A DNA stretch of 64,000 nt from an uncultured Rhodobacteraceae bacterium (GCA_943787785.1 CALSNT010000001.1:65423-129422), one strand, 5' to 3'. Numbered from the stretch's first letter, positions 4,998-44,623 are shown. The notes: generated by a model from the letters alone, not told the origin. Program-made: numbers and translations.

Positions 4998-6731
4998 ATG
5001 TTGAAAAACAAGACTGACAAGACGCATCTGCCAAGCCGTCATGTGACTGAAGGCCCGTCCCGCGCGCCGCACCGGTCGTATTTCTACGCGATGGACCTGA
5101 CCGAAGAGCAGATCGACCAGCCCTTCGTTGGCGTCGCCACCTGCTGGAACGAGGCTGCACCCTGCAACATCGCGCTGAACTGGCAGGCACAGTCGGTCAA
5201 AAAGGGTGTGCTGGCGGCCAATGGCACGCCGCGCGAATTCACGACAATCACCGTCACCGACGGCATCGCGATGGGGCATGAGGGGATGCGCTCATCGCTC
5301 GCCAGTCGTGAGGCGATTGCCGACACCGTGGAACTGACGATGCGCGGCCACTGCTATGACGCGATTGTGGGGCTGGCCGGCTGCGACAAGTCGCTGCCGG
5401 GGATGATGATGGCGATGGTCCGGCTGAACACGCCCTCGGTCTTCATGTACGGGGGGTCGATCCTGCCGGGTCAGTACCAGGGCCGCGACATTACTGTTCA
5501 GGACATGTTCGAGGCGGTCGGCAAGTATCAGGCAGGCCAGCTCAGCGATGAGGAGCTCGCCATCATGGAGCGCGTCGCCTGCCCATCCGCCGGCGCTTGT
5601 GGCGGCCAGTTTACCGCCAACACGATGGCCTGCGTGTCCGAGGCGATCGGTCTGGCATTGTTCAATTCATCCGGCATGCCCGCGCCTTACGAAAGCCGTG
5701 GCGAATATGGCGTTGCTTCGGGCGAGGCGGTGATGAGCCTGCTGGAGAAAAACATCCGCGCCCGCGACGTGGTAACGCTGAAGTCGCTGGAAAACGCCGC
5801 GCGCGTCGTGGCCTGCACCGGTGGGTCGACCAACGCCGGTCTGCACCTACCGGCTATTGCGCACGAGGCCGGGATCGATTTCACGTTGCAGGACGTCTGT
5901 GAGATTTTCCGCGACACGCCCTATTTCGTCGACATGAAGCCCGGCGGGCAGTTTGTGGCGAAAGACCTCTATGAAGCAGGCGGAGTGCCGGTGGTGATGA
6001 AGGAATTGCGCAAGGCGGGCCTGATGCACGAAGACTGCATGACCGCCTCGGGCCGGACCATGGGCGAGGAGCTGGATCGCGTGATAGGTGATGCAGACGG
6101 GCGGGTGATCCACTCGGTCGCGACGCCGATCACCAAGACAGGTGGAGTGGTTGGATTGATGGGCAACCTTGCCCCCGACGGCGCCATCGTGAAGGTCGCG
6201 GGCATGAGCGAAGCCGAGCAAGTATTTACCGGCCCGGCCCGCGTGTTCGAGTGCGAGGAGGATGCCTTCGAAGCCGTAAAAGCACGCAGCTACGAAGAAG
6301 GCGAGGTTCTGGTGATCCGTAATGAAGGCCCCGCCGGTGGGCCGGGCATGCGCGAGATGCTCGCCACCACTGCCGCGCTGTCCGGGCAAGGTATGGGCAA
6401 AAAAGTTGCGCTGATCACGGACGGACGGTTTTCGGGCGCAACACGGGGTTTCTGCGTCGGGCACGTTGGGCCGGAAGCGGCCCATTGCGGGCCAATTGCC
6501 TTGGTTGAGAACGGTGACATGATTACCATTGACGCCATCAAGGGTGAGATTTCGGTGGATGTCAGCGACGCCGACATGGCCAAGCGGAAAGAGGCCTGGG
6601 GCGGCGCGCGCGAAACCATTTATTCCTCGGGCGCGCTGTGGAAATACGCGCAACTTGTCGGACCGACCCGGCTGGGGGCGGTGACACATCCCGGTGCCGC
6701 GGCCGAGCGTCACGTCTACATGGACCTGTAA
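4998..6731 (+). CDS. ilvD: Dihydroxy-acid dehydratase (IlvD/Edd family)
   Basis: [22 protein letters not shown]..., [11 protein letters not shown] and GGSTNAGLH motifs, about 577 aa. Start taken at MLKNK. Confidence 0.9.
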
Positions 6732-32314: not shown

Positions 32315-32596
32315 TCTGGGCGACGTGGTGGGCCTGGGGCGCTGTGGCGCTGGGACTGGCGATCCTTGAAGTGCTGATGCCGACGCAGATTTTTCTGGGC
32401 TTTGCCATCGGCGCTGCCTTCGTCGGAGGCGTCTTCGCATTTGACTGGCCACTGGCGAGTTTCATGGCCGGGTCGCTGCCGTGGACGCTCGTGGTCTTTC
32501 GCCGCATTCTCGCTGATCGCGTGGTTGGTGTTGCGGCGATTCTTCCGGTTGCGTACGGGCAGCGTGAAGGTCTGGGAAAGCGATATTAACGACTGA
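32311..32596 (+). pseudogene. NfeD-like small membrane protein, one frame disruption near 32490
   Basis: ATGA overlap with the SPFH gene. ...SLPWTLVVF continues in the frame of ORF 32402..32596 as AAFSLIAWLVLRRFFRLRTGSVKVWESDIND. Confidence 0.6.
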
Positions 32597-32611
32597 GGTG
32601 GCGTCGCTGCT

Positions 32612-33928
32612 TCACTGCTCGACCGGCAGGCCGCTCGGGACGGATGTCGGGGTGCCGAGCCGGAAGGCCGGGCTGCGTCGGTCCGTCAGGTGGTGCAGGA
32701 AATGCGAGGATGCGGTCGACCTCGCGGTCGGAGAGCGCCATTGGGGCGAGTTCGTTGGCCTCGGCAATCGCTTCAACTTCGACAGGGTCGGTCGTCGCCA
32801 GGAAATCTTCCGCGCCCTCACCAATCCCGGCAGCACGGCCTGACTGGGATCATAGTCCTTGAGGCTGGCTACTGGATCGAGGTGATGACGCACCACGGAC
32901 TCCAACGAGGCAAAAGCTCCGGCGTGACCGTAGGGTGCGGTCTGGTCGACATTGCGCAGGCTGGGGGTGCGGAAGCGGTAGGCGTCGGCGGCATCACCGG
33001 TGACGCGCATGCGCCCGACGTCGCGGTGATGGCTTTCGAAGCGCGCCGCCTTGCCGGGGCCGATCTGCGGCATGGCGATGGCGTGGAACCGGTGGTCGGT
33101 CTGGAACTGGCCAGAGTGGCAGGTTGAACAGCCCGCTGAGCCATAGAACAGGTCCATCCCCTGTCTGGGCTGAAGCGGTCAGCGCGTCCGCATTGCCGCG
33201 CAGGAACTGATCGAACGGCGCATCGTCGGCGCGCCATTCGAACGCAATGAAATCGGCGATGACGTTGGCGATGTCGGCGAATGTGATCCGGTCCGCACCG
33301 TTCAGCGATGCGAAGGCGTCGGAGTATTCCGGGATCGCGGCGACGCGCGCGGCGATCGCCTCCCATGCGCCGCCGGGTTGCGATAGGAGGCCCTGACGCA
33401 CCAGCCGGGAGATGTCGTTCTCGTTGCCGTGCCCGGCCATTTCGTCGCCGGACAGGACCGGGAACATCGCTTGGGCCGCCAGCACCGAGTCGAACCCTGA
33501 TGACCATGTCTGCGCCCAGCGGGGTGCGGATGCCGCCGGGCTGGTCCGGGGCCGCCTCAAGCCGGCCATCGTGGAACATCACGGTAAATTCGTCGGCCCC
33601 GAGGTTGAACAGGGCCGGGGCGTTTCGGGGCACGCGTTGTTCGGGCAGGTTTGCAGGATCGGCGCGCCGCTCGACAGCCCAGCCCTGTCGCCCCGTCACC
33701 AAGTCCCAACGACAGATCGTCGGACGTTCCGGTGTCGGGATGGTGGCAGGACGCGCAGGAGGTTTGGCGGTTGCCACTGAGGATCGGGTCGTAGAACAGC
33801 AGCTGGCCCAGTCGGATGCGCTCCATATCCGCCTCGGGGAATGTCGCGTCGGCGCGGGGCAGCTCGGCGGCCAGCGCGCCGAGGGCGATGCTTGCCGGGA
33901 TCAGGGCAGCGGTCAGCCGCCGGGCGAT
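32612..33928 (-). pseudogene. Di-haem cytochrome c peroxidase (CCP/MauG family), about 5 frame disruptions; start codon unresolved
   Basis: Haem motifs CASCHH and CSTCHSGQ, with EQRVPRNAPALFNLG, FHDGRLE, AAQAMFPVLSGDEMAG, FRTPSLRNV and APYGHAGAF spread over 4 ORF fragments. A hidden alternate-frame stretch reads IGEGAEDFLATTDPVEVEAIAEANELAPMALSDREVDRILAF. Breaks lie near 33695, 33510, 33165, 32829 and 32703. Confidence 0.8.
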
Positions 33929-33929
33929 G

Positions 33930-35238
33930 TCAGACGAAGCGATTGACGTAGTTCTCCAGAATTTCCTGCCGACCCGAGCGGGGCTGTGGATCGACGCCGC
34001 CACCGTGGACACGCGCATGGATCGCTGCCAGATCGCTGCCTAGCATGGCCTGTGCTTCGGGCGTTTCCCACCCAGCGTAGCGGTCAGCCAAGGCATCCTC
34101 CAGCCCACCGTCCTCGATCATCGCGGCGGCGGCCTTGAGGCCCCGCGCACAGATGTCCATGCCGCCGACGTGGGCGGCGATCAGATCGACCGGGTCCAGC
34201 GACTGACGGCGCAGCTTGGCGTCGAAGTTGGTGCCGCCGGTGCCCAGCCCCCCCGCCTTCAGGATGTGGTAGTAGGCCAGCGCGACCTCGGGTGTGTTGT
34301 TCGGAAACTGGTCGGTGTCCCAGCCCGACTGGTAATCGTTGCGGTTCATGTCGATGGACCCCAGCACGCCGAGGGCGGCGGCGGTGGCGATCTCATGCTC
34401 GAAGCTGTGACCGGCCAGAATGCCGTGACCCTGTTCGAGGTTCAGCTTCACCTCTTTTTCCAGCCCGTACTTCTGCAGGAAGCCGAAGCAGGTCGCGGCG
34501 TCGAAATCATACTGGTGTTTCGAGGGTTCCTGCGGTTTCGGTTCCACCAGGATCGTGCCCTTGAAGCCGATCTTGTGCTTGTAGTCGACGACCATCGTTC
34601 AGGAACCGGCCCATGTGGTCCAGCTCGGCCCCCACGTTGGTGTTCAGCAGTGTCTCGTACCCTTCACGCCCGCCCCAGAGGACGTAGTTCTCGCCGCCAA
34701 GTTTCTGCGTCGCGTCCATGCAGGACTTCACCGTCGCGGCGGCATAGGCGAAGACGTCGGGATCGGGGTTGGTCGATGCCCCGCTCATCCAACGGCGGTG
34801 AGTGAACATATTGGCGGTGCCCCAGAGCAGCTTGACGCCGGTGGCCTCCATTTTGATGCCGAAAAGGTCGGTGATTTCGTCCAGCCGGGCTTCGCTTTCG
34901 GCAAAGCTGTCGCCTTCGGGGCGCACGTCGAGGTCGTGGAAGCAGAAGTAGGGCGCGCCGAGAATTTCGAACAGCTCAAAGGCGACGTCGGCCTTCAGGC
35001 GGGCGGCTCTCCATCGTGTCGCCGAACCAGGGGCGCTCGAACGTTTGCACCGCCGAATGGGTCGCCGCCGGGCCACGCGAAAGCTGTGCCAATAGGCGAC
35101 CGCAAAGCGGAGGTGGTCGGCCTGGGATTTGCCCTGCACCTCGGCTCCGGCGTCGTAGTGGCGAAACGCCAGTGGATTGGCACTTTCGGGCCCTTCGTAT
35201 TTGATCGAGGCAATGTCGTCGAAAAATCCGGTGGGCAT
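33930..35238 (-). pseudogene. xylA: Xylose isomerase, about 4 single-base insertions
   Basis: [29 protein letters not shown]...AYWHSF | [10 protein letters not shown] | [14 protein letters not shown] | [12 protein letters not shown]...GGREGY...RFLN | [24 protein letters not shown]...WDTDQFP. Breaks lie near 35083, 35050, 35008 and 34597. Confidence 0.85.
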
Positions 35239-35408
35239 TGTCGGCACTCCGTCAGCGGCAGAATCATTTGGATCTGATTGTATATCACGATTAATTCGGC
35301 GCTCGAAATTAAATAGCGAATCCTGTGACGGTCCCGGTGCCGGTTGATGCGTTGCGGAACTGCTTTTAGGGTCTGCCGCGTAAAGAAATCTCGAGCGGGC
35401 GGGCGAGC

Positions 35409-36371
35409 GTGGCAGTTGAACGAAGTGCACGGCGAAATCTGGACGATCTGTTTTGCCGGCTGGCTGATCCGGCAGCTCCGTCAGCGGACGTTGCAGATGA
35501 GCAAATTCCTGATCTCGCGCACATGGCGTCCGATCACAATGTTTCGACGATCCTTTACCGCAAGATCGGGGCTGCGCGGTTGGCAACGTTGGCCCCACAA
35601 CTGGTGGCTGAGGCCGAGGGGCTGACGGCAATCACGTTGCGGCTGGAGTCGTTGCTGCCCCGGCTGCGCGGTGCCTTTGCCGATCATGGCCTTGATCCCA
35701 TCATTGTTAAGGGCCCAGTTTTTGCGGAGCGCCTGTACTCTGATCCCGCAGATCGTCCGTTCACCGACATCGACATCGTGGCGCAGCCAGATGATTTTGC
35801 CGCCATTGGCACAATTCTTGGCGAAATTGGCCTGCATCAGTACCTGAAAGCGAGTTTTGATCGTTCGGAGGCCAATCAGGAACAGAAATGGATCAGCGAT
35901 GCTGACCCCAACTTGTTGATCGAATTGCATGGCGACCTTGTGCATTATCCGGGCTTGCGCCGTAGGGTTCGTTTGGGCCACGCAGAACTGACGGCCCTCG
36001 GCCCTGATGCCACAACCACGCTGTTTCTGACGGCAGTGGCGCATGGTGCACTCGGGCATAAGTTTCATACCCTCCGGCTGGTTCTGGACGTGCTGCAGGC
36101 ATTTCGAGCGTTATCCTTGTCCGAGCGTTCTACCCTGTTGCATCGAGCCAGAGCGGCACGTTTGCATTTGGAAACGCTTCAATCCCTTCAGCTTATCGGA
36201 ACGATGTTTGGCGATAATGATGCGCTCGAACTGGTGCGGTCAGCACGTGGCGGTGGCATCGCGCGATCCTGCATGATTGCCGGGCGGGACGTGCTGTCAG
36301 CACCCGATGCGACGTCGTCAAAGTTACGGCGCCATATGTTTCGCCTCTTCCAGCGCTATTCGGCCCGTTGA
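35409..36371 (+). CDS. Nucleotidyltransferase-family protein (PF14907/NTP_transf_5-like)
   Basis: 320 aa, GTG start. [27 protein letters not shown] fits the KG...R...DIDhhh signature of the uncharacterised nucleotidyltransferase family that accompanies HprK-like kinase/PqqD cassettes. Confidence 0.65.
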
Positions 36372-37358
36372 ATGGTTGCTGCGCTGAGTGCGGTTGTTTT
36401 TTCTGCGGGATTTGTCGACTCCGCGCCGGCATTGGCCGGTTGGCTCGATGCGGGGCACCGGATTTCGGCGGCGGTGTTTCCTGCGACTGCAGAACGCCGT
36501 ATAAAACGTTCCATTCGGTATGATCATCCCGGCTCGATTTGGTCTAGCGGCGGCATACTCCGACGGGGTGCCCCTGAAGCCGAGGTCATTTACCAAGGCT
36601 TAAATTCCGACACGGCGCCGATTGAGGATATGGTGCGGCGTCTGCAGCCCGATTTGATCATTTCGTCGCACTGGATGCGCCGGTTGTCCGGTCGGCTTTT
36701 GTCGCTTGCACGGCTGGGAGGCGTCAATGTGCACCCGGCGTTGCTACCGTATTACCGCGGGCCGGACCCTTTGAATGGGATGATCATGGCCGGGGACCTT
36801 CGCAAGGCTGGCGGCGTAACCTTGCACCAAATGACCGAGCGTTTCGATGAAGGGCCGATCATTGCGCAGATTCCGCTTCGGGAATGCCATTGGACGGATA
36901 GTCTGCAAATGCGCCGAGCGCTTGGAAGTGCTCAATACCAACTGGTCCGCAATGATCTGCACCGGTGGCTTTCTGGTACGATTACGACGTGTCGGCAAAC
37001 GGGCGGGAACTGGCATGACAAGAGCGTCCGGTCGAGCCGGATCGAAGCCACTTGGCCAGCTGAGAGGTTGCTTCCGATTTCACGCCTGCTGCTTCAGAAT
37101 TCGCGGCGATTGCGGGCTCTTTCTACACCAACGGGCCCGATTCCGTTGCCCCAGGTCCTTCGTGTCATTGGTCCGCCGACGGGTGCACCGATCGCGACAG
37201 GGCGAAAATGGTTAGAATTTGACTGCAAAGACGCACGGATCAGGGCGATAGGACGTCGTCGGATTTCTATCGCACTTGAACGCCAGAGAATAAAACGCAC
37301 CCTGAGACGCAGCCTACCGCTGGAGGGACTCGAAAGTTCAACCGATGCCGGACCCTGA
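36372..37358 (+). CDS. Formyltransferase-family protein (Fmt/PurN-like catalytic domain)
   Basis: The ATG directly abuts the upstream stop. GGVNVHPALLPYYRGPDPL matches the N-x-H...SLLPxxRG motif, and GVTLHQMTERFDEGPIIAQ supplies the conserved Asp. Confidence 0.7.
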   Translation: MVAALSAVVFSAGFVDSAPALAGWLDAGHRISAAVFPATAERRIKRSIRYDHPGSIWSSGGILRRGAPEAEVIYQGLNSDTAPIEDMVRRLQPDLIISSHWMRRLSGRLLSLARLGGVNVHPALLPYYRGPDPLNGMIMAGDLRKAGGVTLHQMTERFDEGPIIAQIPLRECHWTDSLQMRRALGSAQYQLVRNDLHRWLSGTITTCRQTGGNWHDKSVRSSRIEATWPAERLLPISRLLLQNSRRLRALSTPTGPIPLPQVLRVIGPPTGAPIATGRKWLEFDCKDARIRAIGRRRISIALERQRIKRTLRRSLPLEGLESSTDAGP

Positions 37359-38363
37359 CGGCGTCAGTGTTGCCTGGGCCAGCGTTTCGCCAAATACCTT
37401 GGCCGCTGACACCAATCCGGCCTGGCCTTCAGGCACAAGCAATTCATAGGCGGGAGTTTTACGGATCAACTCGGTTAAGCAGTCGAGCGCGGCCAGATCA
37501 CGGGCGCCAAGCCCCCCCGCGCTGTGGCGCACGTTGTCTGAAACAAGGCGCGCCAACGCCTCGGCGGCGGGGAGCGCGCGCACTTCTGCTTCGGAACCCG
37601 TCCCGCGCGCCAGCGAGAAGACAGCACCTACGGGCCGTATGACATGCGGAGATATCGGCATGTGTTCGGCCAATAACTCAAGCGGCACCGCGCGCTCTTC
37701 ACGTTTTGACCAATCTGCCGTCCCTGCTAGCCAAGGCAGCATTTCGACGGTTTTGCGGTGGACATTCGGATCGCGGGCAAGTCCCCAGACAAGAAATCCG
37801 TTTTCGTCGGGGTTTGCAGACAGCACGGCTGCATCGTCATTCGCCATGGCGTAACCCGCATGCGCAAGTGCCAGCGTTGTCGTCGTCTTTCCGGTGCCGC
37901 TGGGCGCGAAGACCAACCCGAAAGATCGTCCGTCGCGATCCGCCAGGCAGGCTGCGTGAACCAGCGTCTGCCCTGTGGCTGCAATTGCGGCGTCCATTGC
38001 GTGGACGGACAGATCGAAGCTCTCGGACAGTTTCGCGTTCTCAGCCAAGATCAAGTCGGCTGTTCGCATCGCAGTATCCAGCCGCAGAGAGGCCAGATCG
38101 GGGCGTACGTACCACATCACGGAGCCAGACTCGTGAACGGTGACCGATTTGCCGTCCTGGCCGGAGCCTTCGTGCAGCAGGGTTGCATCGGCGTCAGGCC
38201 CGATTGGCACTCCACGCCAAAGTGAAAGCGTCATCGCCACTGGCAGCTCTTTTTCGCGATTGTGGCGCAGAAGCAGGCCGCCAAATATGGTCGTAGCCCA
38301 GTCTGGCGGGCCAGAGACGTCCAACGTGGCGCTCAAAAGGTCGTAGCGGGCATTGGGGGTCAT
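37338..38363 (-). CDS. HPr kinase-related (HprK-like) P-loop kinase
   Basis: P-loop FAPSGTGKTTTTLALA inside a protein of about 340 aa. Start MTPNARYD forms an ATGA overlap with the B2 stop. Its 3-prime end overlaps the convergent formyltransferase gene by 21 nt. Confidence 0.7.
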   Translation of the reverse strand: MTPNARYDLLSATLDVSGPPDWATTIFGGLLLRHNREKELPVAMTLSLWRGVPIGPDADATLLHEGSGQDGKSVTVHESGSVMWYVRPDLASLRLDTAMRTADLILAENAKLSESFDLSVHAMDAAIAATGQTLVHAACLADRDGRSFGLVFAPSGTGKTTTTLALAHAGYAMANDDAAVLSANPDENGFLVWGLARDPNVHRKTVEMLPWLAGTADWSKREERAVPLELLAEHMPISPHVIRPVGAVFSLARGTGSEAEVRALPAAEALARLVSDNVRHSAGGLGARDLAALDCLTELIRKTPAYELLVPEGQAGLVSAAKVFGETLAQATLTPSGSGIG

Positions 38364-38815
38364 GCAGTCACGGGTCCGGGAAATTCCATCAACTCGGTCA
38401 TGCCGTCCTCCCGATCGCTGATCACCGGGGTGCCATCGAGGCAGACCCAGCAATGGGCGTCCAGCTTCTTTGAGGTCAGGGATTTCTCGACAACGGCAAA
38501 TTTAAGAACCGGGTCAAACCCGGCTTTGCGCAGGTATTTGAAACCAAGCAATCCTCTGCGCATGCAGCGGCGATGGCGCATCAGGATCGGATGCTTCACC
38601 GAGCGGCGCACCCGGCGCAGAATGAAATCCGTGCCAACGCCGCCCCAACGCGGATCGGCAGGCACGTCGGCCCATGCCAGTGCAATGCTCAGGTCCGTTT
38701 CACCAATCTGATAGGGCAGTTTGCGCGCATCGAGCCAGATGTCCCAGCCCAATGACATGCGTCGGGCAACGGGCAGTGTCGGCGATTTTTCAGGCACCCG
38801 CGTCGACGACGACAC
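38360..38815 (-). CDS. Lasso-peptide B2-type transglutaminase-like cysteine protease (PF13471-like)
   Basis: RRCMRRGLLGFKYLRKAGFDPVLKFAV...LDAHCWVCLDGTPVISD has Cys, His and Asp in the spacing typical of McjB-C/B2 proteases. An alternative start is at 38758. Confidence 0.7.
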   Translation of the reverse strand: MSSSTRVPEKSPTLPVARRMSLGWDIWLDARKLPYQIGETDLSIALAWADVPADPRWGGVGTDFILRRVRRSVKHPILMRHRRCMRRGLLGFKYLRKAGFDPVLKFAVVEKSLTSKKLDAHCWVCLDGTPVISDREDGMTELMEFPGPVTA

Positions 38816-39077
38816 CGTCGTTAGCCAGCGGTGAAATCATCTCGATCAAGTCCGGGATCAGCACATCCGGCGTTACTTCAAAATCGTCGGTCATGCGGGT
38901 GGCAATGTCAGACAGGCTCGATGAACCGTCCAGTCGCCCCAGAAAATCCATCGCGGTCTCGTTGCATGTGTAGATCTCGCCTGTCGTTGTCATCAGCACA
39001 ACGCCGGTTTCGCCAACGGCGCGCATGGTCGCACTGGGCGAAAGGGTCAGGACCGAGGTGTCGGCGATCTGGGTCAT
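38790..39077 (-). CDS. PqqD-family protein (RiPP recognition element / lasso B1-like)
   Basis: 95 aa: MTQIADTSVLTLSPSATMRAVGETGVVLMTTTGEIYTCNETAMDFLGRLDGSSSLSDIATRMTDDFEVTPDVLIPDLIEMISPLANDGVV. Typical PqqD topology (beta strands, then L-N-x-T/A-x-x-x-W/L helices). Good RBS (aaggaga). Confidence 0.75.
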   Translation of the reverse strand: MTQIADTSVLTLSPSATMRAVGETGVVLMTTTGEIYTCNETAMDFLGRLDGSSSLSDIATRMTDDFEVTPDVLIPDLIEMISPLANDGVVVDAGA

Positions 39078-39091
39078 GGCGGCTCTCCTTG

Positions 39092-39157
39092 TCAGCCGGT
39101 GTGTACCCAAGCTGCTGGCGTCTGGCCAGTCCGAAACGCACCGCATAAGGTAGCCAT
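39092..39157 (-). CDS. Speculative 21-aa ORF in the precursor-peptide position upstream of the PqqD gene
   Basis: atg gct acc tta tgc ggt gcg ttt cgg act ggc cag acg cca gca gct tgg gta cac acc ggc tga = MATLCGAFRTGQTPAAWVHTG. The stop lies 14 nt before the PqqD ATG. Weak RBS (gaaag), and only 11 of 20 third-codon positions are G or C. Confidence 0.2.
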   Translation of the reverse strand: MATLCGAFRTGQTPAAWVHTG

Positions 39158-39181
39158 TGGCTTTCGGAAACGCAGGACAGG

Positions 39182-40597
39182 TTGCCTTTGGCGTGGGATC
39201 AAAACATTGAAGCCTTGTTGGGCGTGGGTTGCCGGTTGAGCGATCATCGCAGGGGGCAGGAACTGGACCGCGACGCGTTGCTGACGCGATCTGCGAAACG
39301 CGCTGCGTGGTTGCTCGAACAAAGATGCGCCCGCGGTGATCGGATTGTGATTGCGGCGCGCGACCCATTGCAGATTGTCGTCGATCTGTTCGCCTGCTGG
39401 CAAGCCGGATTGGTCGCGGTTCTGGTGAATCCGGCGATTGTTGCGGGCGAGCGCCAGCGCGTGACGCAAGCAACCAACGCGAAGCTGTGGGTGGACGAGC
39501 AAACAGCGGAGTCCGAAACTACAGAAATAGCACTTGAGCCTTTGCATCTAAATGAACCTGCGCTGATCTTGATGACATCTGGTACAACGGGTGTGCCAAA
39601 GGGGGTCACTTTGACTCTCGAAGCGCTTCTTGCACGGGTGGGCAGCAACCGGGCGCATATCGGAGACGCGGCATTGGTGCGGACTCTGGCAGTGCTGCCG
39701 GTTTTTTTCGGGCACGGGTTGATCGGGACGATCCTGACGCCTCTGGCCGCCGGAGGGCATGTGACGCTGTGGCCGTCGCCCACGCTGGGCGAGTTGGCGC
39801 GCCTAGGCACGGTCATGGACGAGACCAAGACGACGTTCCTTAGCGGCGTTCCCAGCTTCTGGCGCATGGCTGAACGTCTGTCGCCGCCTCCAAAGACGCC
39901 GCCAACGCAGGTGCATGTCGGATCCGAGGCGCTGAGTTTGGAGTTGTGGCAGGGCATCGCCGACTGGGCCGGGACGCACAATGTGCTGAACATGTACGGG
40001 CTGACTGAGACGGCAAACTGGGTCGGCGGAGCAAGGTTGGATCAGACGGACGGTTCGACGGGGTTTGTCGGTAAGCCGTGGTTGGGAGATATCGCAGTGC
40101 TGGATGATGTCGGATCGGTGCAGAGCCTCGGAACCGGTGAGGTACTTCTACGCAGCGACGCAGTTATGACCGGCATCTGGGACGACCCGCCGGCGAGCAA
40201 GGCGGCGTTCCACGACGGTTGGCTCAGGACAGGTGATATCGGTCAGTTGGACGCGCGGGGGCTCACCCTAAAAGGGCGCCTCAAGTCCCAGATCAATCGC
40301 GCAGGTGTCAAGATATTGGCCGAAGAGGTTGAACAGATGCTGGAACGCCATCCGGACGTGGCCGAGGCGGCTGGTTATTCATTGCCCGACCAGGTGTCCG
40401 GCGAAGCCGTCGGCGCGGCGGTCGTTCTGCAGCCGGGGGCGATGATCACCCCTGAGAGCCTGCGCGACTGGTGCCGGGATGAGGTTCGCGCTGAAGCCGT
40501 GCCAACGCGGATTGCCATTCTGGACGCGCTTGTGCGAAATGACCGGGGTAAACTCATGCGCAATGCGACCCGGGATCTGGTGACCGGCTCCGGCTAA
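39182..40597 (+). CDS. ANL-superfamily adenylating enzyme (acyl/aryl-AMP ligase)
   Basis: LILMTSGTTGVPKGV, YGLTET, WLRTGDIG, GRLKSQINRAGVKI and a C-terminal catalytic Lys context NDRGKLMR. TTG start uncertain. Divergent from the PqqD operon. Confidence 0.8.
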   Translation: MPLAWDQNIEALLGVGCRLSDHRRGQELDRDALLTRSAKRAAWLLEQRCARGDRIVIAARDPLQIVVDLFACWQAGLVAVLVNPAIVAGERQRVTQATNAKLWVDEQTAESETTEIALEPLHLNEPALILMTSGTTGVPKGVTLTLEALLARVGSNRAHIGDAALVRTLAVLPVFFGHGLIGTILTPLAAGGHVTLWPSPTLGELARLGTVMDETKTTFLSGVPSFWRMAERLSPPPKTPPTQVHVGSEALSLELWQGIADWAGTHNVLNMYGLTETANWVGGARLDQTDGSTGFVGKPWLGDIAVLDDVGSVQSLGTGEVLLRSDAVMTGIWDDPPASKAAFHDGWLRTGDIGQLDARGLTLKGRLKSQINRAGVKILAEEVEQMLERHPDVAEAAGYSLPDQVSGEAVGAAVVLQPGAMITPESLRDWCRDEVRAEAVPTRIAILDALVRNDRGKLMRNATRDLVTGSG

Positions 40598-40642
40598 GCG
40601 CAGGCCGAGACGCAAAAATCTGAAAGCACGACATCTGACCCA

Positions 40643-41227
40643 ATGAGCTGGATAAACAAACCCCGAGATCCGCATTTTGATCAGGTCCTGCAGACCGACA
40701 GATTCGAATTGCGCCCGCTGACCCTATGGCGAACCTGGCGTCTCGGCGTTGCCAAATGGCTGGACGATCCGGAACTCGCCAATGCAATAACTGCGGCCCC
40801 CTTGCGCGGGTCGCAATGGCGGTTGTATCGGCTGATGTCGAAACCCAATGGTCGCACGCGATTCACCTATGGTATCTTTCCGCGAGGCTCGGACCAGCCG
40901 ATTGGAGTCGAATCCGTCCAATTGCGCAACTATCGCACGGCCAGTCTGGCGGTTCTTATTCATGACCGCGAATGGTGGGGAAAAGGGGTGGTGTCCGAGG
41001 TGCGCGGGCGTGTGATCGATCATTTGTTCGACAGCCCGCGCGTCGGTCGCATTCAGGGGCAGGTCGAAGGGCGCAATTTCGCTTCGATCTTCAACTATCG
41101 CAATCTGGGGTTTGCCCACGTGGGTACGCTGCACCAATGCACCTGGAACACTGCTGAGGATGTCCCGGCAGATCAGTTGATGTTCGAAATGATGGAAGAC
41201 GACTGGCGCAATCGGAGTGAAGCATGA
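40643..41227 (+). CDS. GNAT-family N-acyltransferase (RimJ/RimL-like)
   Basis: 194 aa. RFELRPLT..., then the acyl-CoA-binding-type segment WWGKGVVSEVRGRVIDHLF and NFASIFNYRNLGFAHVG. Confidence 0.7.
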   Translation: MSWINKPRDPHFDQVLQTDRFELRPLTLWRTWRLGVAKWLDDPELANAITAAPLRGSQWRLYRLMSKPNGRTRFTYGIFPRGSDQPIGVESVQLRNYRTASLAVLIHDREWWGKGVVSEVRGRVIDHLFDSPRVGRIQGQVEGRNFASIFNYRNLGFAHVGTLHQCTWNTAEDVPADQLMFEMMEDDWRNRSEA

Positions 41228-41439
41228 CCGCCGAAGTTGCACGGGCGCTGGTCGCCAAGGCGCTGGGCCGCGACACGATAGAGGCTGGCGATGGCCTGGC
41301 GACTTTGGCCGAATGGGACAGTCTGGGTCATATGCACATCGTTCTGGCAATTGAGGCGCAGCGGGGGGAGCGACTGACACCGGAGCAGATCGTCTCGATC
41401 GCGACAGTTGCGGACGTAGTAGCCTTGCTGGATGGCTGA
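41224..41439 (+). CDS. Acyl carrier protein-like (phosphopantetheine attachment site)
   Basis: 71 aa with LAEWDSLGHMHIVLAIE (DSL Ser motif). ATGA overlap with the GNAT gene. Confidence 0.7.
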   Translation: MTAEVARALVAKALGRDTIEAGDGLATLAEWDSLGHMHIVLAIEAQRGERLTPEQIVSIATVADVVALLDG

Positions 41440-41525
41440 TTTGGTTGACGCTGCTGGACACTGCCGGCGTGCTGAGCCATGGATTGGTGAGCCTTATACG
41501 AAATGTTTAGTAGGTGATCTGGCCC

Positions 41526-43097
41526 ATGACTGCTGACAACGATCCGCTGGATATTTTTATCATTGGTGGCGGTATCAATGGCTGCGGCATCGCGCGGGAC
41601 GCGGCGGGGCGCGGCCTGAGTGTGGCGCTGGCTGAAATGAACGACCTCGCATCGGCAACCTCATCGGCTTCGACCAAGTTGTTCCACGGCGGTCTGCGGT
41701 ATCTTGAATACCTCGAATTCAGGCTGGTGCGTGAGGCGTTGATCGAGCGGGAAAATCTGCTGAGTGCGATGCCGCATATCTCGTGGCCGATGCGCTTTGT
41801 GCTGCCTTATCACAAGGACATGCGGTTCGAGGGCGAAACGCCTGTCTCGCGCATCCTGTCCTTCGTGATGCCGTGGATGAAAGGGCGGCGGCCTGCCGCG
41901 ATGATCCGGGCAGGTCTGTTCATGTACGACCATCTAGGTGGGAGGAAAATCCTTCCGCCAACGAAGACGCTGGATCTGCGTACCGATCCGGCGGGCGGGC
42001 CGTTGCAGGATCGGTTTCTCAAGGCCTACGAATATTCCGACTGCTGGATACAGGACTCGCGGCTGGTGTCGCTCAACGCGCGCGATGCGGCGGAGCGGGG
42101 TGCCCGGGTGATGACGCGGACCAAGGTGACCTCGGCCGAGCGGGTGGGCGATCTGTGGCAGGTAACGTTGCAGCGCGAGGATGGCGGCACCGAGACGCTG
42201 AGTGCGCGCGCGCTGGTCAATGCGGGTGGCCCGTGGGTCGAAGATGTGATCCGCAACACGGTGCGCATCAACTCGACCGAAGGCGTGCGGTTGGTGCGGG
42301 GCAGTCACATCGTGGTGCCGCGGCTTTACGATCATGATCGGTGCTATTTCTTTCAGGGCACCGACGGACGGATCATTTTTGCAATTCCATATGAGGATGA
42401 TTTCACGCTGATCGGCACGACCGATCAGGATCAGGAGGGGCCGCCGGGGCCGGTGGAGATCTCCGACGGCGAGATCAAATACCTTTGTGAATTTGTCTCG
42501 GGATATTTGAAACCGCCTGTCACGCCGGAGGATGTGGTCTGGACCTATTCCGGGGTTCGGCCGCTCTATGATGACGGCGCGAAATCCGCGACGGCGGCGA
42601 CGCGGGATTACGTGTTGTCGCTAAACACGGACGGGCCCGCGCCGTTGCTGAATGTTTTTGGCGGAAAGATAACGACGTATCGCAAACTCGCCGAGCACGC
42701 TTTGGAGAAGCTGGCGGACCCTTTGGGATTTTCTGATGCGGGCTGGACGGCGCGGGTGCCTCTGCCGGGCGGCGACTTCCCGGTCGATGGCGTGGCGGCG
42801 CTGCGTTCGAAACTGCTGGCCGACTATCCGTTTCTGGGCGTGGAGCGCGTCAACCGCCTGATCCGGGTTTATGGCACCGATGCTTGGCCGATGCTGGGCG
42901 AAGCGTCCTCGGACGCCGATCTGGGGCGCGATTTTGGCGGGACCATCACCGAGGCAGAAGTGCGCTGGCTGATGGCGCACGAGTTCGCCAAGGGTGCTGA
43001 CGACGTGGTCTGGCGGCGCACCAAGCGGGGCTTGCGGATGAGCGCCGCGCAGATTGCAGCGCTTGATGAATGGATGGTTGAGGCTCGGCAGAGCTGA
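41526..43097 (+). CDS. glpD: Aerobic glycerol-3-phosphate dehydrogenase (FAD)
   Basis: DIFIIGGGINGCGIARDAAGRG dinucleotide fold, SSASTKLFHGGLRYL, about 523 aa, followed by glpK. Confidence 0.9.
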   Translation: MTADNDPLDIFIIGGGINGCGIARDAAGRGLSVALAEMNDLASATSSASTKLFHGGLRYLEYLEFRLVREALIERENLLSAMPHISWPMRFVLPYHKDMRFEGETPVSRILSFVMPWMKGRRPAAMIRAGLFMYDHLGGRKILPPTKTLDLRTDPAGGPLQDRFLKAYEYSDCWIQDSRLVSLNARDAAERGARVMTRTKVTSAERVGDLWQVTLQREDGGTETLSARALVNAGGPWVEDVIRNTVRINSTEGVRLVRGSHIVVPRLYDHDRCYFFQGTDGRIIFAIPYEDDFTLIGTTDQDQEGPPGPVEISDGEIKYLCEFVSGYLKPPVTPEDVVWTYSGVRPLYDDGAKSATAATRDYVLSLNTDGPAPLLNVFGGKITTYRKLAEHALEKLADPLGFSDAGWTARVPLPGGDFPVDGVAALRSKLLADYPFLGVERVNRLIRVYGTDAWPMLGEASSDADLGRDFGGTITEAEVRWLMAHEFAKGADDVVWRRTKRGLRMSAAQIAALDEWMVEARQS

Positions 43098-43126
43098 ATT
43101 TCTGATGGATTTTTGCGGAGGGCACC

Positions 43127-44623
43127 ATGGCCAAGCACATTCTGGCGATAGATCAGGGCACGACGTCCAGCCGGGCGATTGTATTCGATGCGGATCTGAA
43201 AATCGTCGCCTCGGCGCAGGAAGAGTTCGAGCAACATTTCCCCGCCTCGGGCTGGGTCGAGCATGATCCGGCGGACCTGTGGTCGACGGTGCAATCCACC
43301 AGCCGCGCGGCGCTGGAAAAAGCCGGTGTGGCGGCGGGCGACATCGCCGCTATCGGCATCACCAACCAGCGCGAAACCGTGGTGGTCTGGGACAAGTCGA
43401 GTGGCGAGCCGATCCATAAAGCCATCGTGTGGCAGGACCGACGCACTGCTGCGCTATGCCGCGAGTTGGTCGAGGCTGGGCACGAGCCGATGGTGACCGA
43501 GAAGACCGGGTTGCTGCTGGACCCGTATTTTTCAGGCACCAAGTTGAAGTGGCTGCTGGACGAGGTGGACGGTGCGCGGGCGCGTGCCGAGGCCGGAGAG
43601 CTTCTGTTCGGCACCGTCGACAGTTTCCTGATCTGGAAGATGACAGGTGGCGCTCGCCATGTCACAGATGCAACCAACGCGGCTCGAACTTTGCTCTACA
43701 ACGTTCGTGAGGGGCGGTGGGATGTCGAGATTTGCGATCTGCTGGGTATTCCAATGGATATGTTGCCCGCGGTGTTGGACTGCGCGGCTGATTTCGGTGT
43801 GGCTGGGGCCGACCTACTAGGGGCCGAGATACCGATTCTGGGCGTAGCCGGGGATCAGCAAGCGGCGACCGTCGGGCAGGCGTGTTTTCAGGCCGGTATG
43901 TTGAAATCGACTTACGGGACGGGGTGTTTTGCGCTGCTGAATACAGGCGACACGCTTGTGACCTCGCAAAACCGGTTGCTGGGGACAATTGCCTATCAAT
44001 TCGACGGGGTGCCGACCTATGCGCTAGAGGGCTCGATTTTCGTGGCGGGCGCTGTGGTGCAGTGGTTGCGCGATGGATTGAAGATCATCGCGGATGCGAC
44101 CGAAACTCAACCGCTGGCTGAAAGTTCGGATACCGGCCAGGACGTCGTTTTGGTGCCGGCCTTTACTGGGCTTGGTGCGCCGTATTGGCGGCCCGATTGC
44201 CGGGGAGCGGTGTATGGGCTGACGCGCAATTCCGGCCCCGCCGAATTTGCCCGCGCGGCGCTTGAAAGTGTCGGCTATCAGACGCGCGATTTGCTGGAGG
44301 CAATGCAGGCCGACTGGCAAAGAGACGAAACCACCGCCGCTCCGGTGCTGCGGGTTGATGGTGGTATGAGCGCATCTGACTGGGCAATGCAGTTCCTGTC
44401 CGACATCATTGACGCGCCGGTGGATCGACCCGAAGTGCTGGAAACCACAGCGCTGGGGGCCGCATGGCTGGCCGGGATGCGCGCAGGGATCTATCCGGAC
44501 CAGACCGGGTTCGCCGAGACCTGGGCGTTAGAGCGGCGATTCGAGCCTGAAATGGACCAAGCAACCCGTGCCGAGAAATATGACCGTTGGGGGCGGGCGG
44601 TTCAGGCCACCCTCGGGGTTTGA
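43127..44623 (+). CDS. glpK: Glycerol kinase
   Basis: [28 protein letters not shown] and GDQQAA motifs, 498 aa. Confidence 0.95.

What the first reader, a model, noticed from the sequence alone, without database searches (positions are those of the whole stretch)
35409..41439. Eight-gene cluster joining lasso-type leader-peptidase genes (B1/B2) and an HprK-like kinase to an acyl-ligase/ACP/GNAT/formyltransferase set, with no cyclase: candidate uncharacterised peptide-tailoring system
**Seen in the sequence**
- There are three tightly packed transcription units:
  - (+) PF14907-like nucleotidyltransferase, then an Fmt-like formyltransferase (stop and start abut).
  - (-) PqqD/RRE, then B2 transglutaminase-like protease, then HprK-like P-loop kinase (overlap plus ATGA coupling).
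  - (+) ANL adenylating ligase, then GNAT, then ACP (ATGA coupling).
- All eight ORFs are intact, although the adjacent xylA and ccp are riddled with frame breaks.
- The window contains no asparagine-synthetase-like lasso cyclase, no ABC exporter and no exosortase/EPS genes.

**Established knowledge**
- PqqD plus B2 is the split leader peptidase of lasso-peptide pathways.
- HprK-like kinases phosphorylate lasso precursors (paeninodin type).
- To my recollection, curated family names such as HprK-related kinase A and HPr-rel-A system PqqD family peptide chaperone exist only as computational definitions, with no known product.

**Inference**
- The combination predicts a ribosomal peptide that is recognised by the RRE and has its leader removed.
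- It would then be decorated (phospho/nucleotidyl, formyl or acyl) rather than lariat-cyclised. I cannot match that architecture to a described natural-product class.
Basis: partly seen in the sequence, partly recalled or inferred. Interest (0 to 1): 0.85.

Follow-up and report, generated by a model that had tools for sequence, protein, structure and literature searches.

The report
Cyclase-free lasso-like peptide tailoring cassette
This is an intact, conserved eight-gene cassette that uses the leader-recognition and leader-cutting proteins of lasso-peptide pathways, plus a serine-kinase-like enzyme and acyl/formyl-transfer enzymes, to make what is most likely a short, linear, phosphorylated and capped ribosomal peptide; the peptide gene is not in this window and no product is known.

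Summary
All eight ORFs are intact, tightly coupled and match the stated domains. The kinase is HprK/PEPCK-like by fold only and fails the curated HprK-related models.

The cassette recurs in the same gene order in other Rhodobacteraceae and in an Oxalobacter MAG. Reduced 4-7-gene versions occur in Mesorhizobium and in metagenomes. No related locus encodes a lasso cyclase.

Relatives carry short precursor genes beside or near the module. I found at least 117 clusters, many named 'putative RiPP precursor' by NCBI. Each has a lasso-type YxxP...L leader ending in Thr/Val-Ala and a 7-11-residue core with a near-invariant Ser at position 4-5.

Neither leader type occurs in this window or in an extra 10 kb. 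In M. loti the precursor lies about 24 kb from the module, so encoding in trans is plausible. All eight genes are under purifying selection.

The closest described system is the Bacillota 'linear polyphosphorylated peptides' (Popov 2026). This cassette differs by using the B2 protease, lacking an exporter, having tiny cores and adding an ANL/ACP/GNAT and formyltransferase set.

Verdict: a real, uncharacterised proteobacterial variant of phosphorylated lasso/LPP-type RiPP pathways. The product and this genome's substrate are unknown.

The parts
35409..36371 (+). PF14907 (NTP_transf_5) nucleotidyltransferase-fold protein. Its presumed role is to elaborate the phospho-Ser, as shown for PsmN in pseudomycoidin.
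   Evidence: - PF14907, E 1e-24.
- Invariant VKG..FA..LY..R.[FY][TS]D[IL]D motif across 10 loci.
- dN/dS 0.10 against L001.
- Role inferred from PMC6993621.
36372..37358 (+). Fmt-like formyltransferase. This is an accessory gene, absent from several related cassettes.
   Evidence: - PF00551, E 9e-20.
- Closest solved relatives are the ArnA formyltransferase domain and sugar N-formyltransferases; the NxH...D residues align.
- Present in L001, L004, L008 and L028; absent from L017, L020, L022 and the Mesorhizobium loci.
37338..38363 (-). HprK/PEPCK-fold P-loop kinase, 341 aa. It is the presumed Ser kinase for the core peptide.
   Evidence: - Invariant H136, S155-G-x-G-K-T-T-T162 and D176-D177.
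- HprK/P is the best PDB sequence match.
- AF2 pLDDT 92.6, and Foldseek finds the PEPCK fold.
- Below all curated cut-offs.
- ATGA coupling with B2.
38360..38815 (-). Lasso-type B2 leader peptidase, a transglutaminase-like Cys protease. The start is either GTG 38815 or ATG 38758.
   Evidence: - NF033537 at 41.6 bits, above the cut-off of 33; PF13471.
- Invariant RRC[LM]R Cys and [AG]H[CS]W His in 11 loci.
38790..39077 (-). Discrete PqqD-like RiPP recognition element (B1).
   Evidence: - PF05402, E 9e-10.
- Best NCBIfam neighbour is the lasso PqqD chaperone, below threshold.
- Most constrained gene of the cassette: 93% aa identity and dN/dS 0.04 against L001.
39078..39181 (.). Divergent intergenic region of 104 nt between PqqD and the ANL ligase. 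In the Oxalobacter cassette (L008) the equivalent 485-nt spacer holds two precursor genes. There are none here. It contains a block conserved with L001 at about 39118-39140.
   Evidence: - Sequence.
- Alignment with L001.
- L008 precursors at 5895-5990 and 6039-6125.
39182..40597 (+). ANL-superfamily adenylating ligase, with an uncertain TTG start. It presumably loads the ACP.
   Evidence: - PF00501 and PF13193.
- Closest solved relatives are oxalate-CoA ligase, FadD13 and MenE.
- Always found with GNAT and ACP in relatives.
40643..41227 (+). GNAT acyltransferase (Acetyltransf_3, the RimJ/RimL-like subgroup). It is the presumed acyl transferase from acyl-ACP to an amine of the product.
   Evidence: - PF13302, E 1.6e-11.
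- 81% identity and dN/dS 0.07 against L001.
- No PDB sequence match.
41224..41439 (+). 71-aa acyl carrier protein with the DSL phosphopantetheine-attachment motif.
   Evidence: - PF00550, E 1.4e-6.
- ATGA coupling with GNAT.

Best explanation
**What it is.** The cassette is the enzyme set of a cyclase-free, proteobacterial offshoot of phosphorylated-lasso / linear-phosphopeptide RiPP biosynthesis.

**Proposed steps (all inferred for this genome)**
1. A short precursor is made. In relatives it is about 28-36 aa: a leader M-K-K-x-Y-x-K-P-x-L-x-K-R-E-K-L-x-x-V-[T/V/A]-A, then a 7-11-residue core.
2. The PqqD-like RRE binds the leader through its YxxP motif.
3. The HprK-like kinase phosphorylates the near-invariant core Ser at position 4-5.
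4. The PF14907 protein extends the phosphate, for example with a hexose as PsmN does.
5. The B2 cysteine protease cuts after the -1 Ala. Because there is no cyclase, the core stays linear.
6. The ANL ligase loads a carboxylic acid onto the ACP. The GNAT transfers it to a free amine, most simply the new N-terminus.
7. The Fmt-like enzyme formylates an amine. This could be the N-terminus of an alternative product or an amino sugar on the phosphate.

**Substrate in this genome.** The precursor gene is not in the cassette or anywhere in the 64-kb window, so it must be encoded in trans.

**Shown here:** gene content, conservation, selection, precursor families in relatives, and absence of a cyclase. 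**Inferred:** every chemical step.
For: **Cassette identity and integrity**
- All eight genes are intact, coupled and match their domains.

**Conservation**
- Same eight genes in the same order in Rhodobacteraceae MAGs (L001-3, L026/27; 61-93% aa identity).
- Same eight genes in an uncultured Oxalobacter MAG (L008; 33-48% identity).
- Seven-gene form without Fmt: L017, L020-22.
- Five-gene form (PqqD-B2-kinase-Fmt-NTP5): L028.
- Four-gene core (PqqD-B2-kinase-NTP5): eight loci, seven in Mesorhizobium genomes plus an alphaproteobacterial MAG (L010).
- Sources.

**Selection**
- dN/dS is 0.04-0.18 for all eight genes against L001. Neighbouring glpD and glpK give 0.05-0.08. PqqD is the lowest.

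**Precursors in relatives**
- L008: two precursor genes exactly between ANL and PqqD.
- L005: five.
- L010, L017 and L007: one each.
- L028: eight, of a second leader type.
- Sources.

**Precursor family**
- A profile search finds 117 clusters, many named 'putative RiPP precursor' by NCBI.
- All 117 match the leader pattern.
- Position -1 is Ala in 95%; position -2 is Thr in 50%.
- Cores are mostly 7-11 aa; 113 of 117 contain Ser, mostly at position 4-5.
- The motif corresponds to the lasso recognition motif Y(x)2PxL cited.

**Trans encoding occurs**
- In M. loti DSM 2626 the precursor P0102 lies about 24 kb from the module on the same contig.

**No cyclase**
- None in the window or in any related locus examined.

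**Precedents from papers**
- LppK polyphosphorylates Ser3 of a linear core in an RRE + HprK-kinase + NTP-transferase cluster without a cyclase (PMC13381572).
- PsmN, an NTP transferase with a DxD motif, is required for adding hexoses to phospho-Ser (PMC6993621).
- GNATs acylate RiPP N-termini from acyl-CoA (LpvE) or acyl-ACP (GdvG).
Against: - No precursor gene of either leader type was found. Two HMMs and three motif scans (two Y/F/W-xxP-x-L-type, one looser [YW]xxP small-ORF scan) covered the 64-kb window; only the two HMMs were run on 10 kb beyond its right end and on the other Rhodobacteraceae loci. The substrate in this lineage is unknown and may differ.
- No exporter or immunity gene accompanies the cassette.
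- The kinase and NTP-transferase activities are inferred from distant homologues. Identity to HprK is confined to the P-loop region. LppN showed no activity in the published system.
- Two amine-capping enzymes (GNAT and Fmt) face cores that usually hold one amine, so at least one role is unclear.
- Some relatives sit in or near polysaccharide loci. That leaves room for a non-peptide or glycoconjugate substrate.
- In the 98%-identical contig L023, the kinase and Fmt each carry a 1-bp homopolymer insertion. This is either assembly error or incipient decay.
Confidence: 0.6

Rival explanations
1. Orphaned remnant. The Rhodobacteraceae cassette lost its precursor genes and is a non-functional or decaying leftover of a RiPP cluster.
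For: - No cis precursor in the window, L001, L020, L022 or L023.
- The PqqD-ANL spacer is 104 nt, against 485 nt with two precursors in L008.
- The neighbouring xylA and ccp are pseudogenes.
- L023 has 1-bp insertions in the kinase and Fmt.
Against: - All eight ORFs are intact here.
- dN/dS is 0.04-0.18 across lineages whose kinases are only 53-68% identical. The RRE is as constrained as housekeeping genes.
- Four diverged Rhodobacteraceae lineages keep the cassette.
- Trans-encoded precursors are documented in M. loti.
Confidence: 0.1
2. Not a peptide pathway in this lineage. The enzymes act on another substrate, such as a polysaccharide, glycolipid or protein. The kinase, nucleotidyltransferase, formyltransferase and acyl-ACP/GNAT would build or decorate a phospho-sugar-type moiety. 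PqqD and B2 would be co-opted for a protein partner.
For: - L004 places Fmt-PqqD-B2-kinase inside a glycosyltransferase/UDP-glucose dehydrogenase/polysaccharide-lyase locus.
- The Mesorhizobium modules lie 4-6 kb from an ExoP-like Wzz/GNVR gene and an Acyl_transf_3 gene.
- The Fmt-like protein is closest to sugar N-formyltransferases such as ArnA.
- LPP and paeninodin clusters are also often embedded in capsule loci.
Against: - RRE plus B2 is a peptide-leader recognition and cleavage pair. Cognate leader-bearing peptides sit beside the same module in L005, L007, L008, L010, L017 and L028.
- The window and most relatives have no polysaccharide genes nearby.
Confidence: 0.15
3. Canonical lasso pathway whose cyclase, and precursor, are encoded elsewhere in the genome.
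For: - B2 passes the curated lasso B2 model.
- The leaders of relatives carry the lasso YxxPxL motif and Thr at -2.
- Kinase and NTP transferase are known lasso tailoring enzymes.
Against: - No Asn-synthetase-like gene in the 64-kb window or in about 17 related loci with flanks of up to 10 kb.
- The family's cores are mostly 7-11 aa, with only 4.3% Asp plus Glu. That is too short and too acid-poor for a 7-9-membered macrolactam ring plus a threaded tail.
Confidence: 0.05

Closest known systems
Linear polyphosphorylated peptides (LPP; lppA-K-B-S-D-N) of Bacillota, Popov et al., Nat Commun 2026 (PMC13381572)
   Same: - Discrete RRE plus HprK-like kinase plus uncharacterised NTP transferase, with no macrolactam cyclase.
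- The leader carries a YxxP RRE-binding motif.
- The phospho-acceptor is a Ser near the N-terminus of the core: Ser3 in LPP, and a conserved Ser4/5 here.
- Some members lie in polysaccharide loci.
   Different: - LPP uses a SipW-like signal peptidase I (LppS) as leader peptidase; this cassette uses the lasso B2 Cys protease.
- LPP has an MsbA-like exporter; there is none here.
- LPP cores are long (45 aa in the model; precursors of 35-200 aa), against 7-11 aa here.
- The leader consensus differs: YxxPxVLxHQxIxFETxxS against YxKPxLxKREKLxxVTA.
- The authors state that LPPs and paeninodins are restricted to Bacillota; this family is alpha/betaproteobacterial.
- LPP clusters have no ANL/ACP/GNAT or Fmt genes in their core set.
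Phosphorylated lasso peptides: paeninodin and pseudomycoidin (psmA-C-K-B1-B2-N-D)
   Same: - Split B1 (RRE) and B2 leader peptidase.
- HprK-type kinase that phosphorylates a Ser of the precursor.
- PsmN-type NTP transferase required for adding hexose to the phosphate.
- B2 here passes the curated lasso B2 model.
   Different: - No lasso cyclase and no ABC exporter.
- The cores of relatives are too short and acid-poor to form a lasso.
- The acceptor Ser is internal (position 4-5), not C-terminal.
- The phylum differs.
N-acylated RiPP lipopeptides made by GNATs: goadvionins (GdvG, acyl-ACP donor), lipoavitides (LpvE, acyl-CoA donor) and selidamides
   Same: A GNAT is encoded in a RiPP-type cluster together with machinery that supplies an activated acyl group. 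A dedicated ACP plus ANL ligase suggests an ACP-bound donor, as for GdvG.
   Different: - Those systems are lanthipeptide/avionin-type or NHLP-type RiPPs with other core enzymes.
- The GNAT here belongs to the PF13302 subgroup and has no solved or named close relative.
- Neither the acceptor nor the acyl group has been established.
Curated 'HprK-related kinase A / HPr-rel-A system' (TIGR04352/TIGR04353) and the SynChlorMet cassette (ScmC/ScmD)
   Same: An HprK-like P-loop kinase is paired with a PqqD-family protein. These are the best, though weak, NCBIfam neighbours of the kinase.
   Different: - Scores are far below the cut-offs: 30 bits or less against 200 for the two HprK-related models, and 16 against 125 for ScmC.
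- The PqqDs match lasso chaperone models better.
- There are no radical SAM/SPASM genes and no exosortase context in the window.

Membership tests
Lasso peptide biosynthetic gene cluster | Discrete or fused RRE (B1, PqqD-like) | tested here: met
   PF05402, E 9e-10. The best NCBIfam neighbour is the lasso PqqD chaperone NF033530, but below its cut-off at 22 against 70 bits.
Lasso peptide biosynthetic gene cluster | B2 transglutaminase-like cysteine leader peptidase | tested here: met
   NF033537 at 41.6 bits, above the cut-off of 33. The catalytic Cys and His motifs are invariant across 11 loci.
Lasso peptide biosynthetic gene cluster | Asn-synthetase-like macrolactam cyclase (C) | tested here: not met
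   - None among the scanned window ORFs of 430 aa or more, and none in the Pfam-annotated 27.6-48.4 kb stretch.
- None in about 17 related loci with flanks of up to 10 kb.
- The rest of the genome could not be searched.
Lasso peptide biosynthetic gene cluster | Precursor whose core has an Asp/Glu at position 7-9 and a tail long enough to thread | tested here: not met
   - There is no precursor in the window.
- In relatives the leader is lasso-like, but the cores are mostly 7-11 aa with 4.3% Asp plus Glu.
Linear polyphosphorylated peptides (LPP, PMC13381572) | SipW-like signal peptidase I (LppS) as leader peptidase | tested here: not met
   None of the eight cassette genes, nor the genes of related cassettes, is a signal peptidase. 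B2 occupies that role.
Linear polyphosphorylated peptides (LPP, PMC13381572) | Discrete RRE + HprK-like kinase + uncharacterised NTP transferase, without a cyclase | tested here: met
Linear polyphosphorylated peptides (LPP, PMC13381572) | MsbA-like exporter in the core cluster | tested here: not met
   No ABC exporter lies in or beside the cassette. The window's ABC systems are importers with binding proteins, 17 kb or more away.
Linear polyphosphorylated peptides (LPP, PMC13381572) | Precursor leader motif YxxPxVLxHQxIxFETxxS | tested here: not met
   Relatives' leaders read YxKPxLxKREKLxxVTA or KPY[TS]KPxA[RK]PAG[ST]L. Only YxxP is shared.
Linear polyphosphorylated peptides (LPP, PMC13381572) | (Poly)phosphorylation of a core Ser by the kinase | not testable with these tools
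   This needs MS of an expressed pathway. A conserved Ser at core position 4-5 is consistent with it.
HprK-related kinase A / HPr-rel-A system (TIGR04352, TIGR04353) | Kinase and PqqD score above the curated cut-offs | tested here: not met
   - The kinase scores 23.8 bits against a cut-off of 200.
- Five relatives score 18-30 bits.
- The PqqDs do not hit TIGR04353.
SynChlorMet cassette (ScmC/ScmD with radical SAM/SPASM enzymes) | ScmC and ScmD above cut-off, plus two rSAM/SPASM genes | tested here: not met
   - ScmC scores 16 bits against a cut-off of 125.
- ScmD scores 15 bits against a cut-off of 100.
- There is no radical SAM gene in the cassette.
Exosortase A-associated acyl-CoA ligase/ACP set (TIGR03098 etc.) | Ligase above cut-off and exosortase/PEP-CTERM context | tested here: not met
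   TIGR03098 scores 118 bits against a cut-off of 592. No exosortase or EPS genes were found in the surveyed ORFs of the window.
GNAT-dependent N-acylated RiPPs (goadvionin / lipoavitide type) | A GNAT transfers an ACP- or CoA-bound acyl group to the leader-cleaved peptide | not testable with these tools
   GNAT, ACP and ANL are present and always co-inherited. The donor and acceptor are unknown.

The most novel reading that the evidence does not exclude
The cassette and its relatives define an undescribed proteobacterial RiPP class with these features:
- The products are 7-11-residue linear peptides (disulfide-bridged in about one in six).
- They are released by the lasso B1/B2 pair without any cyclase.
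- They carry a phospho- (and possibly glycosyl- or nucleotidyl-) serine.
- In the eight-gene form, they also carry an ACP-derived N-acyl and/or N-formyl cap.
- The precursor genes are often scattered in trans around the genome.

Post-cleavage N-formylation, or phospho-linked lipidation, of a ribosomal peptide would be a new chemistry.
Probability: 0.4. Interest if true: 0.78.

Novelty: new variant of a known kind. Interest (0 to 1): 0.66.

Why it matters
- **Wider distribution.** Linear phosphorylated RiPPs were described only in 2026 and were stated to be confined to Bacillota. This cassette would extend them to Alpha- and Betaproteobacteria, with a different leader peptidase.
- **B1/B2 without a cyclase.** It would show that the lasso B1/B2 pair can serve as a stand-alone leader-removal module.
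- **A tractable system.** The family offers very short, easily synthesised cores (at least 117 precursor clusters) with one conserved Ser. That makes the still-unknown function of the PF14907 'NTP transferase' and of the HprK-like RiPP kinases directly testable.
- **New hybrid chemistry.** The eight-gene form adds an ANL/ACP/GNAT set and a formyltransferase. It is a candidate route to N-capped phosphopeptides, a combination not yet reported.
- **Genome mining.** The scattered, trans-encoded precursors also matter, because such precursors are missed by cluster-based tools.

Tried and rejected
**Precursor search in the window (all negative)**
- Motif scans for Y/F/W-xxP-x-L.
- HMM built from 10 precursors, then from 117.
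- HMM of the second leader type, from L028.
- Loose scan for small ORFs with [YW]xxP.
- Both HMMs on an extra 10 kb beyond the window's right end, via L029-31.
- The left-end extension failed because no exact protein match was on record.

**Conserved intergenic sequence**
- Alignments of the window against L001 show no conserved small ORF.
- A conserved block upstream of the Mesorhizobium PqqD looked like a peptide or RNA. It is the N-terminus of a divergently transcribed small protein. It has no Rfam match.

**Other searches with no useful result**
- Rfam on the window finds only a tRNA at 26.1 kb.
- PADLOC finds no defence-system match.
- The promoter/terminator scan is not above chance.
- AF2 on NTP_transf_5 from a single sequence gave pLDDT 45, which is unusable, so no fold search was run.
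- NTP_transf_5 and the GNAT have no PDB sequence match.
- No NCBIfam precursor model matches the peptides, even though NCBI names many of them 'putative RiPP precursor'.
- Literature searches for TIGR04352, HprK-related and PF14907 returned nothing.
- The metagenome scan with PqqD returned only 3 loci.
- The second leader type is rare: 3 clusters.

**Interpretations rejected**
- Membership of the HPr-rel-A, SynChlorMet or exosortase-A sets: scores are far below the cut-offs.
- A canonical lasso pathway: there is no cyclase and the cores are unsuitable.

Full report
**1. Observation**

The eight ORFs exist as described:
- NTP_transf_5, 35409-36371 (+).
- Fmt-like, 36372-37358 (+); its start abuts the previous stop.
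- Kinase, 37338-38363 (-).
- B2, 38360-38815 (-).
- PqqD, 38790-39077 (-).
- ANL ligase, 39182-40597 (+).
- GNAT, 40643-41227 (+).
- ACP, 41224-41439 (+).

The kinase/B2 and GNAT/ACP junctions are ATGA overlaps. B2 overlaps the PqqD stop. The Fmt and kinase 3' ends overlap convergently by 21 nt. PqqD has an AAGGAGA ribosome-binding site.

Seven proteins pass Pfam gathering scores. B2 also passes the curated lasso B2 model, at 41.6 bits against a cut-off of 33.

The kinase has no significant Pfam hit and scores only 23.8 bits on TIGR04352, whose cut-off is 200. Three lines still place it as an HprK/PEPCK-like P-loop kinase:
- Its family alignment shows invariant H136, S155-G-x-G-K-T-T-T162 and D176-D177.
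- A profile of that alignment finds HprK/P as the best PDB sequence match.
- A confident AF2 model (pLDDT 92.6) matches PEP carboxykinases. I recall that the HprK catalytic domain shares this fold; that was not tested here.

The neighbouring xylA and ccp are indeed broken. The ccp gene carries six 1-bp insertions relative to the 98%-identical contig L023.

No Asn-synthetase-like protein is encoded in the window. The two ABC systems present are importers with binding proteins.

**2. The cassette is a conserved unit under selection**

Gene order is preserved across distant relatives:
- The same eight genes in the same order occur in Rhodobacteraceae MAGs (L001-L003, L026, L027). Amino-acid identity is 61-93%.
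- The same eight genes occur in an uncultured Oxalobacter MAG (L008), at 33-48% identity.
- L017 and L020-L022 lack only Fmt.
- L028 has PqqD-B2-kinase-Fmt-NTP5.
- Eight loci, seven in Mesorhizobium genomes plus an alphaproteobacterial MAG (L010), have PqqD-B2-kinase-NTP5 only.
- L005 adds a TauD-type oxygenase.
- L004 has Fmt-PqqD-B2-kinase.

The core is therefore PqqD-B2-kinase, usually with PF14907. ANL-GNAT-ACP always travels as a block. Fmt is an independent accessory.

Against L001, dN/dS is 0.04-0.18 for all eight genes. PqqD is the lowest, at 0.040 with 93% identity. That is comparable to the adjacent housekeeping genes glpD and glpK.

Catalytic motifs of B2 (Cys, His) and of PF14907 (D-x-D) are invariant. 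The Fmt-like protein keeps the N-x-H...D catalytic residues and is closest to ArnA-type sugar N-formyltransferases.

The kinase family comprises about 270 clusters at 50% identity with E of 1e-30 or better.

**3. Precursors in relatives**

Short ORFs with a lasso-like leader lie beside the module in six loci:
- L008: two, exactly in the ANL-PqqD spacer.
  - MKKIYVKPVVMKRDNLIEVTQFIVSGGKNVA
  - MKKIYVKPVVMKRDNLAEVTQGAISKPV
- L005: five.
- L010, L017 and L007: one each.
- L028: eight tandem copies of a second leader type, M..KPY[TS]KPxA[RK]PAG[ST]LAxxTA followed by the core.

A profile search recovers 117 clusters. Their consensus is MKKTYEKPVLVKREKLSAVTA followed by the core. NCBI names many of them 'putative RiPP precursor', in Mesorhizobium, Aquamicrobium and Kaistia.

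Family statistics:
- All 117 match the leader pattern.
- Position -1 is Ala in 95%.
- Position -2 is Thr (50%), Val, Ala or Ile.
- Cores are mostly 7-11 residues, rich in Pro, Ser, Val and Gly.
- 113 of 117 cores contain Ser, mostly at position 4-5.
- 20 cores have two or more Cys, typically flanking that Ser.
- Asp plus Glu make up 4.3% of core residues.

The leader corresponds to the Y(x)2PxL lasso recognition motif. It gives weak hits to lasso-precursor models.

**4. No precursor in this window**

Two HMMs and three motif scans find none in the 64 kb. The HMMs also find none in the other Rhodobacteraceae loci or in 10 kb beyond the right end. The PqqD-ANL spacer here is 104 nt, against 485 nt in L008.

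In M. loti DSM 2626 the precursor P0102 lies about 24 kb from the module on the same contig, among unrelated genes. Trans encoding therefore occurs in this family.

Together with the strong constraint on the RRE, this makes a trans-encoded precursor the most likely situation here. It remains unproven.

**5. Context**

No related locus has a lasso cyclase. The flanks vary:
- Rhodobacteraceae: glpD-glpK.
- Mesorhizobium: acs on one side and DhaK/PTS-EI on the other.
- L008: a GT41-TPR protein.
- L028: monomeric IDH.
- L004 lies inside a glycosyltransferase/EPS locus.
- The Mesorhizobium modules lie 4-6 kb from an ExoP-like Wzz/GNVR gene and an Acyl_transf_3 gene.

The association with polysaccharide loci is therefore occasional, not obligatory.

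**6. Comparison with known systems**

The nearest described system is the LPP family (PMC13381572).
- LppK polyphosphorylates Ser3 of a linear 45-aa core.
- The authors regard LPPs as linear analogues of phosphorylated lasso peptides and state that they and paeninodins are restricted to Bacillota.

In pseudomycoidin, the NTP transferase PsmN is required for adding hexoses to the phospho-Ser, and this depends on its DxD motif (PMC6993621).

GNATs that acylate the N-terminus of leader-cleaved RiPPs are known. Examples are LpvE, which uses acyl-CoA, and GdvG, which uses acyl-ACP.

The present family shares the RRE, kinase and NTP-transferase logic and the absence of a cyclase. It differs in five ways:
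- It uses the lasso B2 protease.
- It lacks an exporter.
- Its cores are tiny.
- It occurs in Proteobacteria.
- In its fullest form it adds ANL/ACP/GNAT and Fmt.

It is not a member of the curated HprK-related A/B, SynChlorMet or exosortase-A-associated sets. All scores fall far below the cut-offs.

**7. Mechanism proposed (inferred)**

1. The RRE binds the YxxP leader.
2. The kinase phosphorylates core Ser4/5.
3. PF14907 extends the phosphate.
4. B2 cleaves after Ala(-1).
5. The ANL ligase loads the ACP.
6. The GNAT acylates a free amine, most simply the new N-terminus.
7. Fmt formylates an amine.

Fmt and the acyl block occur independently of each other in relatives, and most cores have a single amine. 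They may therefore cap alternative products. Alternatively, one of them may act on an amino sugar attached through the phosphate, which would fit the Fmt protein's affinity to sugar N-formyltransferases.

**8. Verdict**

This is a real, intact and conserved cassette. It is a new proteobacterial variant of the phosphorylated-lasso/LPP kind of RiPP pathway. Its product is unknown and, in this genome, so is its substrate. It needs updating on three points: family membership, the existence of a comparable described class, and the missing precursor.

Noticed in passing
window 41514-44623; L009-L016 about 11.7-15 kb: In two independent lineages the module sits next to glycerol or dihydroxyacetone metabolism genes. 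In Rhodobacteraceae these are glpD-glpK. In Mesorhizobium and L010 they are DhaK plus a PTS EI-like protein. An HprK-like kinase beside PTS-linked genes may be coincidence, but the pattern recurs.
   Followed up: no
window 32500-35250: ccp (CCP_MauG) carries six 1-bp insertions and about 2.3% mismatches relative to the 98%-identical contig L023, where it is intact. xylA is split in both strains but intact in L020. This is local gene decay right beside an intact cassette.
   Followed up: partly
L023 10605 and 11361 (equivalent to window 37759 and 37004): The sister-strain contig (ENA ERZ10646601 contig_3442) has single-base insertions in C-runs (CCC to CCCC) in the kinase and in Fmt. These split both genes. 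They could be long-read assembly errors or incipient pseudogenisation.
   Followed up: partly
window about 39118-39140: A block of about 23 nt (minus strand TGCGTTTCGGACTGGCCAGACGC) in the divergent PqqD/ANL promoter region is almost identical in L001, although the sequence around it has diverged. It may be an operator. No exact inverted repeat was detected.
   Followed up: partly
L005 7592-9169 and 12033-14233: This variant cluster has five tandem precursors with long leaders. It also has a TauD-family oxygenase and a 525-aa protein with no Pfam match, placed directly upstream of PqqD. This suggests a hydroxylated subclass.
   Followed up: no
L028 8740-9946; L032: Eight tandem precursor genes carry a second, rare leader type (KPY[TS]KPxA[RK]PAG[ST]L) upstream of a PqqD-B2-kinase-Fmt-NTP5 module. 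Some appear as overlapping alternative frames or starts in a repeated array.
   Followed up: partly
P0058, P0101, P0102, P0106, P0126 and others: About one in six precursor cores has a Cys pair bracketing the conserved Ser (for example IVCVSGCPV and GCVGSDCK). This suggests a small disulfide loop that presents the modified Ser.
   Followed up: no
L009-L016, about 100-300 nt upstream of PqqD: The Mesorhizobium loci lack a recognisable cis precursor but share a conserved GACTATTTCTGGG element. In one frame it reads T-I-S-G, which resembles the family's core motif. It could be a degenerate precursor remnant or a regulatory site.
   Followed up: partly
window 3856-4782 (-): This ORF encodes a CPBP/Rce1-like intramembrane protease (PF02517). 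I recall, without testing it here, that this family is often linked to bacteriocin immunity or processing. It lies 31 kb from the cassette, and no link has been shown.
   Followed up: no
L017 16486-16541 and 16679-16738: Two terC RNA motifs (RF03067) flank the TerC gene near the Mesorhizobium MAG cassette. They are unrelated to the finding.
   Followed up: no
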